Part shown: one piece after another, positions 3,140-22,545 of the stretch
How the letters are laid out: each line of letters opens with the position of its first letter
Position numbering within the stretch: position 1 is the first letter of the stretch
NCBI GenBank assembly: GCA_018653605.1
Contig: JABHYY010000021.1
Span: 4,329 to 68,328 of the forward strand
Direction of reading: 5' to 3'
Origin: an archaeon
GTDB taxonomy: Archaea > Nanobdellota > Nanobdellia > SCGC-AAA011-G17 > GW2011-AR17
DNA: 64,000 bases
Notes under the pieces: generated by a model
Told to the model about the DNA's origin: nothing
The model's input: only the letters and a program-made list of their open reading frames with translations
The model's database searches: none
Made by a program: the position numbers and the translations under genes

Positions 3140-4277
3140 GATAGACCTTATCATTCTCTCTTACTTTTTTTTCTGTTTTTATTCCTACTAAGCATTTAGA
3201 AGCTTTATCCACCTGTTTGTGATTAATTTGTAATTCTTTAACTTCTTGTTTTATTACACCTGTTTTGTTTCCAACAAACATTATTTGATCTTTTAATTTG
3301 AGATCTTTGTATAATTGAATTGCTGCAACACCGTGTTCTTTGTAGAAGTTTATTACTTTACCAATTTGGATTTTTTTTGTTTTTGAAATATTGCCTTCAG
3401 ATTCAGTAAACTCATTGAATGGTTTTCCTAGGTAAAAGCCTGAATGGAAGCCTCTGTTGTATGCTGTTTTTAGTTCTTCTAATAGTGCATTCTTATTCTC
3501 TTCTGTAAATTCATTATTTTTTATTAGTGTAAGTGCTTTTTTGTATGTTCTGACTACAGTGTCAACATACTCAGGAGTTTTTGCTCTACCTTCGATCTTT
3601 ATACAGTCTACAAACTGTAGTTGGTCTAGGAAAGGTAGTGTGCACAGATCTTTTGGTGACATTATGTAACCTTGTCCTAACTTTAATTCTTTGTTTTCTT
3701 CTGTGTCTGTAATTTTGTATTCTCTTCTACAAGGTTGTATGCATTTTCCTCTGTTTGCACTTCTTTGAAATAAGTGTTGTGATAGGAAACATCTGCCTGA
3801 ATATGAAACACACATTGCACCATGGCAAAAAACTTCTATCTCTATGTTAGAATCTTTTATTTTTTTTATCTGGTTTATGTTGAGTTCTCTTGCAAGGATT
3901 ACTCTTTCAACACCTAGTTCTTTGTATTGTTCTATTGCCTTTAAATTAGCAACTGAAGCTTGTGTTGATAAGTGAACTGGGATTTCTAATTCTTTTGCAA
4001 TTTTTATAACTGCTAAGTCCCAACATATTACTGCGTCAATGTGGTCTTTTAGTTCTGTTAAAACTTCTTTTACCCTGTCCAACTCTTCATCATAAATTAT
4101 TGTGTTGATTGTTAGGTATTTTTTTATTTCTGGAAATGCTTTTACTTCTTCTATTGTAAAGTTTTTTGCAGAATCTCGCATGTTAAATTCTTTGATTCCA
4201 AAATATATTGAATCTGCTCCTGCATTGATTGCAGCTTGAAGCATTGCTTGATCTCCTACTGGTGCTAGTATTTCCAT
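3114..4277 (-). CDS. U32 family protein (TrhP/RlhA-like RNA hydroxylase family)
   Basis: MEILAPVG start; AGADSIYFG, HLSTQASV and FCHGAMCVSYSGRC..SANRGKCIQPCRR Fe-S cysteines; KIEGR. Confidence 0.9.
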   Translation of the reverse strand: MEILAPVGDQAMLQAAINAGADSIYFGIKEFNMRDSAKNFTIEEVKAFPEIKKYLTINTIIYDEELDRVKEVLTELKDHIDAVICWDLAVIKIAKELEIPVHLSTQASVANLKAIEQYKELGVERVILARELNINQIKKIKDSNIEIEVFCHGAMCVSYSGRCFLSQHLFQRSANRGKCIQPCRREYKITDTEENKELKLGQGYIMSPKDLCTLPFLDQLQFVDCIKIEGRAKTPEYVDTVVRTYKKALTLIKNNEFTEENKNALLEELKTAYNRGFHSGFYLGKPFNEFTESEGNISKTKKIQIGKVINFYKEHGVAAIQLYKDLKLKDQIMFVGNKTGVIKQEVKELQINHKQVDKASKCLVGIKTEKKVRENDKVYLIENISHE

Positions 4278-12462: not shown

Positions 12463-12535
12463 GGGGCTGTAGCTTAATTGGCTAGAGTCTCTGGCTCCAG
12501 ACCAGAGTATCTGGGTTCGAATCCCAGCAGCCCCA
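12463..12535 (+). tRNA. tRNA-Trp(CCA), intronless
   Basis: Acceptor GGGGCTG/CAGCCCC; anticodon arm TCTGG-CTCCAGA-CCAGA; T arm CTGGG-TTCGAAT-CCCAG. Confidence 0.9.
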
Positions 12536-12555: not shown

Positions 12556-12945
12556 ATGAAATTAAATAAAATATGGGACATAATTGTTAGGCCAAAAAGG
12601 TACCTAACACTATTAGATGTAGTAATAGCTGAAGAAGAAACAGAGATTGTTTATCTTGATGCTGTAATTGATTCTAGTGGATGGACATACACTGGAAGTT
12701 ATGATAGATTGAAGACTTTGGGAAGAAAAGGATATTTATTAGTCAGTGATCAAGAAAGGACAATACAAGTTAATTTCTATCTCACTAAAAATAAAAATGT
12801 AAATCTAGTACACAATCCTGAATTTTTAAGGGATGAAGAGTTGGAAAATCTAATAGAAAAAGACGAACCTACAGTTGCAGTACGATACAAAAAAATAACT
12901 GCAAGAGGATTAGTAAATAAGATTTTGTATCAGGAGAAAAAATGA
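12556..12945 (+). CDS. hypothetical protein
   Basis: GGAGG SD before ATG 12556; the ORF-track extension lies inside the tRNA. Confidence 0.7.
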   Translation: MKLNKIWDIIVRPKRYLTLLDVVIAEEETEIVYLDAVIDSSGWTYTGSYDRLKTLGRKGYLLVSDQERTIQVNFYLTKNKNVNLVHNPEFLRDEELENLIEKDEPTVAVRYKKITARGLVNKILYQEKK

Positions 12946-13860
12946 AAGAATACAGGAGGTGCCCCTGGCACTGAAAAGAAAAAAGTCGTATATATTGGTC
13001 ATGGAGCATGTGGAATGCTTGGTTTAGAAACTATCAAAAGAGACTTCTTAAGACATATTGATTTGTTATGTGTTGTAAATCATAGAGAAACTAGTGATAA
13101 CCCTGATCTCGTACCAGGATTATCTGAAGAGTTAGGTGTTAAATGTTATGAAGGTAGAACAGAAAAACCTGAATTTTTAAAGTATATCCAAAGAGAAAAA
13201 CCTGATTTTGCAGTTATTATGAGGCACCCACACAAGATTCAACCAGAGTTTTTTGAAAGTTTTAGAGAAGGAGTTTTTAATACACATCCTTCAGCTTTAC
13301 CAAAACACAGAGGTATTGCTCCATTAGAATATTCTGTTATTGAAGGTGGGCCTTTGGTTGCAACAGCTTTTAAGATCTCTGCTGGGTTTGATACTGGACC
13401 AATCCTCTGTAGAACTCAAGGGACAGATATTAGAAATAAATATTTAGAAGATGTATTTCCTTTGGCTGTAAATGAAACAAATGAAGTTCTAGGATTAGCT
13501 TTTGAACATCTTTTATTAGAGGGTTATGTTTTAGAAGAACAAGATGATTCACAAGCTACATTTGCTAGAAGAAAAAATCTCCCACAAGTTTTGAGTTTTG
13601 ATATTGCTAATGAAAGGATTGGTCAAATTTATAGGAAAATATTAGCTAGAGGAAGAGAAGGGACAAAATTGTTGTTTGATAGTGGGGCAAAGGAGATTAG
13701 GATAAAGAATGTTGATTCTAGGATTATTGGAGATATTGGTGAAGTGATTGATGAACAGTTTCTTCAAGGAGTTAATGGGTGTTTAGTTTTTGAAAATAAA
13801 ATTAAAGCAAAAAAATTAATTGAATTGGAGGTGCCTTATGAATTTAAACAACAATATTGA
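12942..13860 (+). CDS. Fmt/ArnA-like formyltransferase; start unresolved (possible frameshift)
   Basis: NTHPSALPKHRGIAP and FDTGPI motifs; the expected first strand KKVVYIGHG is in frame upstream of ATG 13015 but has no in-frame start codon. Confidence 0.8.
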
Positions 13861-14539
13861 AAGAGTGGGTAAGGGTCAGAAGAAGATTGCAATTGTAAGT
13901 CTTGTTCATGGAGATGAAATTGAAGGGTTAGAGATTTCAAGGAAAGTTAGAAAAAGAATTGATGGAAGAGAGATTTTTTCTCTCTATTTCATTAAAGCAA
14001 ACTATCGAGCTTACCAAGAAAGAAAAAGATTTATTGATAAGGACTTAAATAGAGTGTTTCCTGGAAACAAAGAAGGATGTTATGAAGAAAGGCTAGCCTA
14101 TGACTTGGTTAAAATTCTTCAACAAATGGATTTAGTTATAGATCTGCATTCAACTAAAGCCAAGAGTGATCCTTTTTTTATCCTAACTAGGAAAGATGAG
14201 AGTTTATTGAATTTAATCTCTGGGAGAGGAATAAATAAAGTTTGTTTGATGAACTCTGATGTAGCAAATGGAAAGGCACTTATTGATTTCTGTAGAGGGT
14301 TTTCTTTAGAAATCCCAGAAGGAAGTAAAATAGATAGAATTGTTGATTTTATAATAAGCTTACTGGGATGTCACTTAGAAGTATTTTCTGTTTATAGAAT
14401 TATTAATAAAAACATTCTTTTTGCTGAAAACTTTAAGGAACTGAGTTTATTTGAAGAAACATTTTATCCTGTTTTGTTTGGTGAAGATGATTATGAGTTT
14501 ACTTGTCTGGCTGCAAAAAAAGGAATCTATTATGGTTGA
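13838..14539 (+). CDS. succinylglutamate desuccinylase/aspartoacylase family Zn-deacylase
   Basis: HGDE, DLNRVFPG and IDLHST motifs; GGAGGTG SD before ATG 13838. Confidence 0.88.
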   Translation: MNLNNNIERVGKGQKKIAIVSLVHGDEIEGLEISRKVRKRIDGREIFSLYFIKANYRAYQERKRFIDKDLNRVFPGNKEGCYEERLAYDLVKILQQMDLVIDLHSTKAKSDPFFILTRKDESLLNLISGRGINKVCLMNSDVANGKALIDFCRGFSLEIPEGSKIDRIVDFIISLLGCHLEVFSVYRIINKNILFAENFKELSLFEETFYPVLFGEDDYEFTCLAAKKGIYYG

Positions 14540-22140: not shown

Positions 22141-22545
22141 ATGGGACTATTCGGTTCTAAGAAAAAAGAAGGTAATCTACCACCACTCGAGTTTCCTGAA
22201 TTACCAAAATCAATTCCTACTTTTGAGGGTCAAAAACAAGAAATGCCTGCAGAGGCTGCTGAAATTAAACAAGCTGTTTCTCAACAACCAGTAATGGATG
22301 CTGCACCACAGATGCCAACAACTAGTGCTGGCCCTGAACAACCTTTATTTGTTAAGATAGACAAGTATAGAGATGTTATGAATAATCTGGGGAAATTAAA
22401 GAAAAGGCTTAGTGATGCTGAAGGTGTGCTTGCAAAAATGAATAAGTTAAAGGAAGAAGAAGACAGAGAACTTGAAGCATGGCATGGTGATCTTGAAAAA
22501 ATAAGAACTCAACTGTTAAGTATTGATCGAAACCTATTTGAATAA
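22141..22545 (+). CDS. hypothetical protein, Pro-rich N-terminus and coiled-coil C-terminus
   Basis: GGAGG SD; PLFVKIDKY followed by heptad repeats. Confidence 0.75.
   Translation: MGLFGSKKKEGNLPPLEFPELPKSIPTFEGQKQEMPAEAAEIKQAVSQQPVMDAAPQMPTTSAGPEQPLFVKIDKYRDVMNNLGKLKKRLSDAEGVLAKMNKLKEEEDRELEAWHGDLEKIRTQLLSIDRNLFE

What the first reader, a model, noticed from the sequence alone, without database searches (positions are those of the whole stretch)
12942..13017. prfB-like +1 frameshift architecture with a Trp codon at the start of the formyltransferase
Seen: the formyltransferase's first strand (KKKVVYIGHG) has no in-frame start. An ATGA-coupled AUG at 12942 reads ATG AAA GAA TAC AGG AGG TGC CCC TGG CAC TGA. 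Known: prfB uses AGG GGG UAU CUU UGA, that is an SD, a 3-nt spacer, a slippery P-site codon and a slow A-site codon. Here AGG AGG TGC CCC TGG has the same geometry, and a CCC to CCT slip gives MKEYRRCP-GTEKKKVVYIGHG. Inference: Trp-tRNA-responsive recoding in a locus headed by tRNA-Trp. Alternatives: CUG start at 12965 plus -1 shift at A AAA AAG (12979-12985), UGA readthrough from the in-frame upstream gene, or an indel/assembly error.
Basis: partly seen in the sequence, partly recalled or inferred. Interest (0 to 1): 0.7.

Follow-up and report, generated by a model that had tools for sequence, protein, structure and literature searches.

The report
Conserved frame break starting archaeal formyltransferase
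A formyltransferase-like gene of a small marine archaeon can only be made whole if the ribosome changes frame near its start, most likely by slipping one base forward at a proline codon followed by a tryptophan codon; no cellular +1 frameshift has been shown in archaea.

Summary
The formyltransferase-like frame is open from 12946 but has no ATG/GTG/TTG before 13015. Its essential first beta-strand (12979-12999) lies upstream of that ATG.

An ATGA-coupled ATG at 12942, with its own Shine-Dalgarno (SD), opens a 10-codon frame: ATG AAA GAA TAC AGG AGG TGC CCC TGG CAC TGA. The enzyme frame is +1 to it.

- The break is not an assembly error. Nine independent marine metagenome runs give identical sequence.
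- It is not recent decay. A relative with 75% protein identity (synonymous divergence about 1, dN/dS 0.15) has the same architecture, including the identical 18-mer AGGAGGTGCCCCTGGCAC.
- The 16 codons upstream of 13015 evolve as coding sequence in the enzyme frame.
- More distant family members start with a plain ATG.

Best explanation (about 0.55): a prfB-like +1 ribosomal frameshift at CCC_UGG, helped by AGGAGG three bases upstream.

Rivals not excluded:
- CUG start plus a -1 slip at A_AAA_AAG
- UGA readthrough from the upstream gene
- a tolerated lesion

A tryptophan-sensing role is inference. The family's linkage to tRNA-Trp and TrpRS genes makes it plausible. Only two lineages carry the break, and there are no RNA or protein data.

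The parts
12463..12535 (+). tRNA-Trp (anticodon CCA) at the head of the gene cluster
   Evidence: ARAGORN and Rfam RF00005 at 65 bits. The same gene sits in the same place in relative L001 at 3453-3525.
12556..12945 (+). Upstream 129-codon ORF of unknown function. Its TGA stop (12943-12945) is in frame with the enzyme.
   Evidence: It is 56% identical to the L001 counterpart. It has no Pfam or NCBIfam family and no other homologue.
12932..12936 (+). SD-like AGGAG, 5 nt before ATG 12942
   Evidence: L001 has GGAGGAGG-aaaa-ATGA at the same place, despite a 3-nt indel and substitutions just upstream. Seven other ATGA gene junctions in the window have similar purine-rich SDs.
12942..12974 (+). 10-codon mini-ORF MKEYRRCPWH*, the proposed 0 frame and true start of the enzyme
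   Evidence: L001 has MREYRRCPWHQ*. The substitutions before CCCC are one synonymous change and one K-to-R change in this frame.
12954..12961 (+). Internal SD-like AGGAGGTG, the proposed frameshift stimulator. AGGAGG ends 3 nt before the CCC codon.
   Evidence: GGAGGTG is used as a genuine SD at 13827 and 22127. The sequence is identical in L001.
12963..12968 (+). Proposed shift site CCC_TGG. Peptidyl-tRNA-Pro would re-pair from CCC to CCT (12964-12966), and the next codon read would be GGC 12967.
   Evidence: CCC is 4% of Pro codons and in-frame CCC_TGG is otherwise absent. The site is identical in L001.
12958..12972 (+). Small hairpin GGUGCC-CCU-GGCAC(U). Its role is unknown and it would mask part of the SD-like element.
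   Evidence: The U-to-C change at 12972 in L001 turns a G-U pair into G-C. There is no double compensatory change.
12964..13860 (+). Formyltransferase-like coding frame after the proposed shift (stop TGA 13858-13860). The first in-frame ATG is at 13015.
   Evidence: Pfam PF00551 at 46.9 bits. The AF2 model has pLDDT 80, with its top PDB matches Fmt and ArnA. N112/H114/D149 are invariant. dN/dS is 0.147 against L001, and 0.11 for 12967-13014.
12979..12999 (+). First beta-strand KKVVYIG of the Rossmann-like core, lying upstream of the first ATG
   Evidence: AF2 strand at residues 12-18, with block pLDDT 95. It aligns with the first beta-strand of all 22 relatives and bacterial Fmt. The ArnA profile matches from residue 14.
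12979..12985 (+). A_AAA_AAG heptamer, the -1 slip site of the rival model. It is in phase with CTG 12965 and GTG 12959.
   Evidence: and conserved in L001. AAAAAAG is common, with 103 copies in the window.
13827..14539 (+). GGAGGTG SD (13827-13833) and AstE/AspA-like deacylase gene (ATG 13838), overlapping the enzyme's 3' end
   Evidence: PF24827 at 73.5 bits. The same gene pair is found in L001 and in the P0003 locus.

Best explanation
The formyltransferase-like protein starts at the ATGA-coupled ATG at 12942. It is completed by a +1 ribosomal frameshift at CCC_UGG (12963-12968).

Proposed steps (all inferred):
1. After MKEYRRCP, peptidyl-tRNA-Pro sits on the rare CCC codon while the A site waits for Trp-tRNA at UGG.
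2. The AGGAGG(UG) element, three bases upstream, pairs with the 16S rRNA tail at a spacing shorter than any initiation spacing used in this genome.
3. That strained pairing favours re-pairing of tRNA-Pro on CCU.
4. Reading continues GGC ACU GAA AAG..., giving MKEYRRCP-GTEKKKVVYIGHG... and a complete enzyme.
5. Ribosomes that decode UGG normally terminate two codons later at UGA.

Shown:
- The frame break is real and conserved.
- Purifying selection acts on the enzyme frame, including the part upstream of the first ATG.
- The SD-N3-CCC-UGG geometry is present and conserved.
- ATG 12942 looks like a standard coupled start.

Inferred:
- That ribosomes shift, and where they shift.
- That the yield rises when charged tRNA-Trp is scarce, which would make the site a Trp-tRNA sensor. 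I give that about half of the probability of the main claim.
For: 1. The break is real. Nine runs from several studies give identical contigs across 12909-13303 or more.

2. The break is old and the gene is functional.
- L001/L002 have 75% protein identity and 77% DNA identity to the window. They have the same ATGA, the same 73-nt offset, and the identical AGGAGGTGCCCCTGGCAC.
- dN/dS is 0.147 with dS about 1.05 over 281 codons.

3. Translation must enter the enzyme frame before 12979.
- Positions 12967-13014 show 4 synonymous changes and 1 changed codon in that frame (dN/dS 0.11). The third frame shows 1 synonymous and 5 non-synonymous changes.
- The first beta-strand is predicted at pLDDT 95 and is present in all relatives.

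4. No ATG/GTG/TTG lies in that frame.

5. ATG 12942 matches the genome's usual coupling signal. Seven other ATGA junctions have an SD. Both the SD and the ATG are kept in L001 although the flanks changed.

6. The geometry is not chance.
- AGGAGG-N3-CCC occurs once, against 0.02 expected.
- The 18-mer is built of rare codons in either frame: CCC 4%, TGC 13%, GCC 3%, GGC 7%.
- None of its synonymous sites changed, although 57% of synonymous sites changed gene-wide.

7. Before CCCC the two substitutions are synonymous or conservative in the mini-ORF frame, but K-to-E and T-to-I in the enzyme frame.

8. CCC_U/CCC_UGA is a known +1 site, used in low-GC Listeria phages where CCC is about 5% of Pro codons (PMC5009743).

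9. Tryptophan context.
- tRNA-Trp lies directly upstream here, in L001, and in the L004 lineage, where it carries an intron.
- TrpRS lies downstream in L004. A class-Ib synthetase lies downstream in the P0003 locus.
Against: - Only two lineages carry the break, so there is no real covariation test.
- The 18-nt identity is only the eighth-longest identical run in 2 kb of alignment.
- There is no RNA or protein evidence. No transcript contigs were found.
- AGGAGGTG could instead be an initiation SD. CUG 12965 lies at an initiation-like spacing, and A_AAA_AAG is in phase and conserved.
- UGG might simply be what the enzyme frame (CCU GGC) imposes.
- SD-stimulated +1 shifting has never been shown on an archaeal ribosome (PMC8211752).
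- cysS and alaS in this window have plain starts, so this is not a general device of the genome.
Confidence: 0.55

Rival explanations
1. Initiation in the third frame, followed by a dnaX-like -1 frameshift. AGGAGGUG would serve as an ordinary initiation SD for CUG 12965 (or GUG 12959). After MALKRKK the ribosome would slip -1 on A_AAA_AAG (12979-12985) into the enzyme frame.
For: - CUG lies 5 nt after the GGAGG core. Real starts here lie 6-9 nt after it.
- The heptamer is in the correct phase and is conserved in L001, as are CTG and GTG.
- A_AAA_AAN-type heptamers are used in dnaX and in the only proven archaeal case, fucA1 (PMC8211752).
- The product MALKRKK-VVYIGHG has an N-terminal length typical of the family.
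Against: - It needs two exceptions: a non-canonical CUG start (GUG has zero spacing to GGAG), and a frameshift.
- AAAAAAG is common (103 copies, 0.8 per kb) and encodes the family's usual Lys-rich N-terminus.
- The SD lies 17 nt before the heptamer, not about 10 nt.
- There is no convincing downstream stimulator. The nearest helix starts 12 nt downstream, shows no compensatory changes, and the fold z-score is 0.53.
- Third-frame substitutions are radical: L-to-P and K-to-I, 1 synonymous against 5 non-synonymous.
- It does not explain the conserved SD plus ATGA at 12942.
Confidence: 0.12
2. Readthrough of the UGA at 12943-12945. The enzyme would be made as a C-terminal extension of the upstream 129-residue protein, joined by a flexible KNTGGAPGTEKKK linker.
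For: - The two ORFs are in frame across a single TGA, both here and in L001.
- GGAPGT looks linker-like, and residues 1-10 are disordered in the model.
- An ENA gene call read with TGA=Trp gives exactly this fusion (P0005).
Against: - TGA is a working stop here. It ends 14 of 70 long ORFs, many of them at ATGA junctions.
- P0005 also reads through the enzyme's own terminal TGA, so it is a gene-caller artefact.
- tRNA-Trp has anticodon CCA.
- All other family members are stand-alone proteins with their own ATG, and the upstream ORF is absent from their loci.
- The two substitutions after the TGA are both non-synonymous in this frame.
- In-frame status follows trivially from the lack of indels between the TGA and the enzyme.
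Confidence: 0.08
3. No dedicated recoding. An old one-base insertion (CCC to CCCC), or a lost start, would be merely tolerated. The cell would live on rare spontaneous frameshift errors or on an N-terminally truncated protein from ATG 13015, or the gene would be on its way out.
For: - All gene callers annotate a 281-residue protein from 13015.
- The L004-lineage homologue is itself shortened, to 232 residues, so the family tolerates remodelling.
- C-runs are indel-prone.
Against: - A start at 13015 removes the first beta-strand and the start of the glycine loop of the Rossmann-like core, which are predicted at pLDDT 95 and universal in the family.
- The segment upstream of 13015 is itself under purifying selection in the enzyme frame.
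- Whole-gene dN/dS is 0.147 over dS of about 1 since the break.
- The rare-codon, GC-rich 18-mer is kept intact in a genome of 32% GC.
Confidence: 0.12
4. Correction at the RNA level. Polymerase slippage, editing or a small intron would remove one base, or a stretch of 3n+1 bases, from the transcript.
For: No direct evidence. It cannot be excluded because no transcript data exist.
Against: - A run of four C or six A is too short for efficient transcriptional slippage (established knowledge).
- The six-A run lies after the mini-ORF's stop.
- By inspection, no bulge-helix-bulge motif can be drawn. The sequences flanking the 12958-12972 hairpin are purine-rich on both sides.
Confidence: 0.03

Closest known systems
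Bacterial prfB (release factor 2) programmed +1 frameshift: AGG GGG UAU CUU UGA C
   Same: - A short 0-frame ORF.
- An internal SD exactly 3 nt before the P-site codon.
- A P-site codon that re-pairs in the +1 frame (CUU to UUU there, CCC to CCU here).
- A possibly slowly decoded A-site codon.
- A 0-frame stop at or just after the site.
- The main body of the protein lies in the +1 frame.
- The break is conserved in relatives.
   Different: - The A-site codon is a sense codon (UGG, Trp), not a stop, so the signal sensed would be Trp-tRNA and not a release factor.
- The host is an archaeon.
- The shift occurs at codon 8-9.
- The gene product is a formyltransferase-like enzyme, so any feedback loop is indirect and unproven.
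- Only two lineages are known.
Hungry-codon +1 sites with a rare sense codon in the A site (yeast Ty1 CUU_AGG_C; CCC_UGA / CCC_U sites of low-GC Listeria phages; pheL CCC_UGA)
   Same: - A P-site tRNA-Pro on the rare CCC slips to CCU or CCN while the A site is empty.
- The genomic setting is the same: low GC, with CCC about 4-5% of Pro codons (PMC5009743).
   Different: - Those sites lack the prfB-type SD (Ty1) or use a stop codon (the phages, pheL).
- None is archaeal, and none uses UGG.
Sulfolobus (Saccharolobus) solfataricus fucA1, the only proven archaeal cellular frameshift
   Same: An archaeal enzyme gene split into two frames and expressed by recoding, while relatives have uninterrupted genes (PMC8211752).
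   Different: fucA1 uses -1 on A_AAA_AAU in the middle of the gene. The direction proposed here is +1, near the start. The -1 model is only the rival.
Methionyl-tRNA formyltransferase (Fmt) and the ArnA N-terminal formyltransferase domain
   Same: - The fold matches, with TM 0.62-0.69 to 4iqf, 1fmt and 4wkg.
- PF00551 is hit, and the catalytic Asn/His/Asp are invariant.
- The first beta-strand and glycine loop are at the very N-terminus.
   Different: - Scores are far below the equivalog cut-offs (TIGR00460: 61.6 against 201.5 bits).
- No PF02911 C-terminal domain is detected.
- Archaea do not formylate initiator Met-tRNA (established knowledge).
- The family is confined to DPANN-type archaea and is linked to tRNA-Trp and TrpRS.

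Membership tests
prfB-type programmed +1 ribosomal frameshift site | A 0-frame ORF with a credible start that ends shortly after the site, with the body of the protein in the +1 frame | tested here: met
   ATG 12942 has AGGAG-N5 before it and an ATGA junction like seven others in the window. The stop is at 12972. The enzyme frame is +1.
prfB-type programmed +1 ribosomal frameshift site | A P-site codon whose tRNA can re-pair in the +1 frame | tested here: met
   CCC_U: CCC to CCU, both proline codons. CCC is rare, at 4% of Pro codons.
prfB-type programmed +1 ribosomal frameshift site | An internal Shine-Dalgarno 3 nt upstream of the shift codon | tested here: met
   AGGAGG 12954-12959, then UGC, then CCC. 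GGAGGTG is a genuine SD elsewhere in the window. The pattern occurs once, against 0.02 expected.
prfB-type programmed +1 ribosomal frameshift site | The A-site codon is a stop (UGA) read by the factor the gene encodes, giving autoregulation | tested here: not met
   The A-site codon is the sense codon UGG, and the gene encodes a formyltransferase-like enzyme. So this works like prfB but is not a prfB site.
prfB-type programmed +1 ribosomal frameshift site | Conservation of the frame break and its signals among relatives under purifying selection | tested here: met
   L001/L002 have the same architecture. dS is about 1 and dN/dS is 0.147. The limit is that only two lineages are available.
prfB-type programmed +1 ribosomal frameshift site | A demonstrated trans-frame protein product | not testable with these tools
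   No proteome data exist, and no RNA contigs were found.
dnaX / fucA1-type -1 frameshift site | An X_XXY_YYZ heptamer in phase with an upstream ORF | tested here: met
   A_AAA_AAG 12979-12985 is in phase with CTG 12965 and GTG 12959, and is conserved in L001.
dnaX / fucA1-type -1 frameshift site | An upstream ORF with a canonical, SD-served start | tested here: not met
   There is only CUG, or a GUG with no spacer after GGAG. L001 has a TAG in this frame immediately before GAG GTG.
dnaX / fucA1-type -1 frameshift site | Stimulators: an SD about 10 nt upstream and/or a stable structure 5-9 nt downstream | tested here: inconclusive
   The SD is 17 nt upstream. A weak helix starts 12 nt downstream and shows only one-sided changes. 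The fold z-score is 0.53.
Stop-codon reassignment or readthrough of UGA | UGA is not used as a stop, or a UGA-reading tRNA is present | tested here: not met
   14 of 70 long ORFs end in TGA. tRNA-Trp has anticodon CCA. The rest of the genome could not be searched.
Formyl_trans_N (PF00551) / Fmt-ArnA type formyltransferases | A Pfam hit above the gathering score, the catalytic Asn-His-Asp, and a Rossmann-like N-domain beginning with the first beta-strand | tested here: met
   46.9 bits against a cut-off of 26.1. N112, H114 and D149 are invariant. The AF2 model has pLDDT 80, with Fmt and ArnA as its top PDB hits.
Methionyl-tRNA formyltransferase (TIGR00460 equivalog) | A score above the equivalog cut-off and a C-terminal PF02911 domain | tested here: not met
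   61.6 bits against a cut-off of 201.5. No PF02911 is detected. The C-terminal 60 residues are poorly modelled.

The most novel reading that the evidence does not exclude
The site is a translational sensor of charged tRNA-Trp. When Trp-tRNA is scarce, ribosomes waiting at UGG with peptidyl-tRNA-Pro on CCC are pushed +1 by the SD-like AGGAGG. They then make an Fmt-like enzyme, and through coupling the AstE-like deacylase, that act in tryptophan or tRNA-Trp metabolism.

This would be the first cellular +1 programmed frameshift in Archaea. It would also be an aminoacyl-tRNA-sensing counterpart of prfB.
Probability: 0.28. Interest if true: 0.8.

Novelty: new variant of a known kind. Interest (0 to 1): 0.62.

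Why it matters
- **Recoding in Archaea.** Experimentally established archaeal recoding is limited to Sec/Pyl readthrough and one -1 frameshift, fucA1 (PMC8211752). A conserved, SD-assisted +1 site would show that archaeal ribosomes respond to internal SD elements as bacterial ones do.
- **A new regulatory principle.** With a sense Trp codon in the A site, it would sense tRNA charging through frame choice. It would do so in genome-reduced DPANN archaea, which lack the usual attenuation machinery.
- **Annotation.** Every public annotation of this gene (NCBI, JGI, ENA, Logan) calls a 281-residue protein that lacks its first beta-strand, or a false TGA=Trp fusion.
- **An enzyme family worth study.** The work exposes an uncharacterised Fmt-like family linked to tRNA-Trp and TrpRS in organisms that do not formylate initiator tRNA.

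Tried and rejected
- **Assembly or sequencing error:** rejected. Nine runs give identical sequence, and a diverged relative keeps the break.
- **TGA recoded genome-wide:** rejected. The 438-residue ENA protein P0005 is a code-4 gene-calling artefact.
- **Start at 13015:** rejected as the functional start.
- **Near-cognate start in the enzyme frame after the SD:** none found. The codons there are GGC, ACU, GAA, AAG. ATA occurs only in L001.
- **Bulge-helix-bulge mini-intron or transcriptional slippage:** no motif can be drawn and the runs are too short.
- **More lineages:**
  - Two scans of metagenome contigs found nothing.
  - The genome-contig scan gave only an unrelated Saccharibacteria Fmt.
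  - The 1.84-billion-protein search found only relatives with normal starts.
  - The upstream ORF has no other homologue.
  - DNA of the P0003 locus was not available.
- **Strain variants:** low-share runs gave the same strain at low coverage, with no variants.
- **RNA evidence:** none.
- **Whole-genome checks:** There is no rRNA in the window.
- **First AF2 run:** with 3 sequences it was too poor to use (pLDDT 42).
- **Same device at this window's cysS and alaS:** not present.
Full report
**1. What is in the sequence**

The window is AT-rich (32% GC) and archaeal. It carries a split rpoB and rpoA'/rpoA'', and relatives of the gene studied include a Woesearchaeota record.

At 12463-12535 lies tRNA-Trp(CCA). 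Twenty bases later a 129-codon orphan ORF starts at 12556. It ends at the TGA of an ATGA at 12942-12945.

The frame of that ORF continues open after the TGA as KNTGGAPGTEKKKVVYIGHGACG, followed by M at 13015 and a PF00551 formyltransferase domain, down to 13860. There is no ATG, GTG or TTG in this frame between 12946 and 13015.

The ATG of the ATGA opens ATG AAA GAA TAC AGG AGG TGC CCC TGG CAC TGA. The enzyme frame is +1 relative to it.

**2. The segment upstream of ATG 13015 is part of the protein**

- With a 24-sequence alignment, AlphaFold gives pLDDT 80, and above 85 for residues 11-240. The first beta-strand is at residues 12-18, KKVVYIG, which is 12979-12999. The first ten residues are disordered.
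- The best PDB matches are Met-tRNA formyltransferases and the ArnA formyltransferase domain, with TM 0.62-0.69.
- All 22 aligned relatives, archaeal and bacterial, begin with M, then 0-20 residues (mostly 1-8), then this strand and the glycine-rich loop. The catalytic Asn/His/Asp (N112, H114, D149) are invariant.
- A protein started at 13015 would lack the central strand of the Rossmann-like core.

**3. The break is not an artefact**

Logan contigs of runs X1, X2, X3, X4, X6, X8, X9 and X12 cover the junction with 0 differences and 0 gaps. A 151-nt contig of X17 does the same. These runs are marine or seawater metagenomes from several studies. Contigs hide rare variants, but the majority genotype is the broken one everywhere.

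**4. The break is old and selected**

The protein search found only three close clusters among 5.8 billion proteins: the window's own, P0002 (75% identity) and P0003 (47%).

The P0002 locus has the same layout: tRNA-Trp, a 127-codon ORF, ATGA, then the enzyme. It was recovered from an NCBI assembly and an independent Logan assembly (L001, L002). The junction reads ATG AGA GAA TAT AGG AGG TGC CCC TGG CAC CAA TAA, and the enzyme is again 73 nt downstream, in the +1 frame.

Divergence between the two lineages:

| Region | Frame | Synonymous | Non-synonymous | dN/dS |
|---|---|---|---|---|
| 281 codons from ATG 13015 | enzyme | dS about 1.05 | dN 0.154 | 0.147 |
| 12967-13014 (16 codons) | enzyme | 4 | 2 changes in 1 codon | 0.11 |
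| 12968-13012 | third frame | 1 | 5 | 1.4 |
| 12945-12965 | mini-ORF | 1 (TAC/TAT) | 1 (K to R) | 0.19 |
| 12946-12963 | enzyme | 0 | 2 (K to E, T to I) | not computable |

The break was therefore inherited from the common ancestor. The enzyme frame, including the part that has no start codon, has been under purifying selection since. The numbers for the short segments are small, but they point to a frame change between 12945 and 12967.

**5. The signals**

- AGGAGGTGCCCCTGGCAC is identical in the two lineages. At 77% overall DNA identity this is only the eighth-longest identical run in 2 kb, so identity alone is weak evidence.
- The 18-mer is 72% GC in a 32% GC genome and is made of disfavoured codons in either frame: CCC 4%, TGC 13%, AGG 20%, GCC 3%, GGC 7%. 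None of its five four-fold sites in the enzyme frame changed, although 57% of synonymous sites changed gene-wide. This suggests selection on the nucleotides themselves.
- GGAGGTG is a genuine SD in this genome. It lies 4 nt before the AstE-like ATG at 13838 and 7 nt before an ATG at 22141.
- AGGAGG-N3-CCC occurs once in the window, against 0.02 in shuffles. In-frame CCC_TGG occurs nowhere else in 16,462 codons.
- ATG 12942 with AGGAG-N5 looks like the seven other ATGA gene junctions of the window. The SD and ATG are kept in L001 (GGAGGAGG-N4-ATGA), although the sequence just upstream has a 3-nt indel and several substitutions.
- A six-pair hairpin GGUGCC-CCU-GGCAC(U/C) covers 12958-12972. The one difference turns a G-U pair into G-C. 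Its role is unexplained. It would be melted by a ribosome translating from 12942.

**6. Mechanism**

The simplest route to a full-length enzyme needs one exception. Translation starts at the coupled ATG 12942, and a +1 slip of peptidyl-tRNA-Pro moves it from CCC to CCU while UGG is in the A site.

The geometry is that of prfB: AGGAGG, three bases, then the shift codon. The 3-nt spacing to the GGAGG core is shorter than the 6-9 nt seen at real starts here.

CCC_U-type +1 shifts are documented, notably in low-GC Listeria phages where CCC is about 5% of proline codons (PMC5009743). Shifting at Trp codons under Trp shortage is known in human cells (PMC13751296 abstract).

Ribosomes that do not shift stop two codons later here, or three codons later in L001. 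I put this model at 0.55.

**7. Rivals**

- **CUG 12965 (or GUG 12959) plus -1 at A_AAA_AAG, 0.12.** The phase is right and the elements are conserved. But it needs a non-canonical start as well as a shift. The heptamer is a very common word here (103 copies) that simply encodes Lys-Lys. The stimulators are missing or misplaced. Third-frame substitutions are radical. It also leaves the SD and ATGA at 12942 unexplained.
- **UGA readthrough giving a fusion, 0.08.** TGA is a normal stop here. Other family members are stand-alone proteins. The only 'fusion protein' on record is a TGA=Trp gene-calling artefact that also runs through the enzyme's own stop.
- **Tolerated lesion or truncated protein, 0.12.** This is contradicted by selection on the start-less segment and by the fold.
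- **RNA-level correction, 0.03.** No suitable motif exists, but no RNA data are available to exclude it.

**8. Tryptophan context**

More distant members of the family have ordinary starts, but they sit in the same neighbourhood.

- In the P0007 lineage (L004-L007), a tRNA-Trp(CCA) with a 133-nt intron ends 19 nt before the enzyme's GAGGTG-N4-ATG. It was found with ARAGORN's intron mode. A bona fide TrpRS follows two genes later (TIGR00233, 234 bits against a cut-off of 177).
- In the P0003 locus the order is enzyme, AstE-like gene, then a class-Ib synthetase of 360 residues.

The enzyme is therefore linked to tRNA-Trp in three lineages, and to TrpRS or a TrpRS/TyrRS-class synthetase in two. 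The upstream ORF and the frame break are derived features of one sub-lineage.

This makes a Trp-related function likely for the enzyme. It also gives a rationale for a UGG 'hungry codon' switch. It does not prove one, because UGG could be a by-product of CCU GGC in the enzyme frame.

This window's cysS and alaS have plain starts, so the device is not general in this genome.

**9. Comparison with what is known**

According to a 2021 review, archaeal recoding is established only for Sec/Pyl and for the -1 shift of fucA1. A +1 event is merely suspected in one haloarchaeal virus (PMC8211752).

The present site works like prfB but fails the defining prfB feature: a stop codon in the A site, read by the gene's own product. 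It is a new variant (sense-codon, archaeal), not a member.

Earlier unverified notes of this scan describe similar CCC or Trp-codon mini-ORFs before trpS, trpE, trpB, a racemase and synthetase genes in other archaea. I treat them as leads that agree with this reading, not as evidence.

**10. Verdict**

The main limits are that only two lineages carry the break, there are no RNA or protein data, and there was no access to the rest of the genome.

Noticed in passing
L004 2776-2981 (also L005-L007); window 12463-12535; L001 3453-3525: This Fmt-like family is genomically tied to tryptophan decoding. tRNA-Trp(CCA) lies directly upstream in three lineages; in L004 it carries a 133-nt intron that default ARAGORN and Rfam miss. 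TrpRS lies downstream in L004 (4175-5269), and a class-Ib synthetase lies downstream in the P0003 locus. This suggests an unknown enzyme acting on Trp or Trp-tRNA in DPANN archaea.
   Followed up: partly
window 13827-14539; L001 4824-5534: An AstE/AspA-type (succinylglutamate desuccinylase / aspartoacylase) gene overlaps the 3' end of the formyltransferase-like gene by 23 nt, with its own GGAGGTG SD. The pair is conserved in three lineages, so the two probably work together. The substrate is unknown.
   Followed up: no
window 12958-12972: A conserved 6-bp hairpin GGUGCC-CCU-GGCAC(U/C) contains the proposed shift site and half of the SD-like element. It is a palindrome at the DNA level, and the one substitution in the relative strengthens it. 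None of the models explains it.
   Followed up: partly
P0005 (ENA gene call covering window 12556-13872): Public ENA annotation holds a 438-residue 'fusion' of the upstream ORF and the enzyme, made by reading TGA as Trp on short contigs. It also runs through the enzyme's own stop. It is a gene-calling artefact and could mislead homology searches.
   Followed up: yes
L004 669-2658 and 3001-4106: In the P0007 lineage the neighbours are a Trm5b/Taw22-like tRNA methyltransferase and a free-standing LAGLIDADG endonuclease just upstream of the intron-bearing tRNA-Trp. The Fmt-like protein is shortened to 232 residues and is followed by an orphan 120-codon ORF where the AstE-like gene sits elsewhere.
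   Followed up: no
window 726, 1085, 1825, 2178, 42526 (+); 40074, 49067 (-): ATGA start/stop overlaps with purine-rich SDs are the standard operon junction here. They account for half of the TGA stops among the long ORFs. By contrast, cysS (58839, - strand) and alaS (22975) look leaderless behind TATA-like boxes.
   Followed up: partly
window 12556-12942: The 129-codon ORF between tRNA-Trp and the enzyme is an orphan. It has no family hit, and its only homologue is the L001 counterpart (56% identity). It is absent from the loci of family members that have normal starts, so its insertion and the frame break may be connected.
   Followed up: partly
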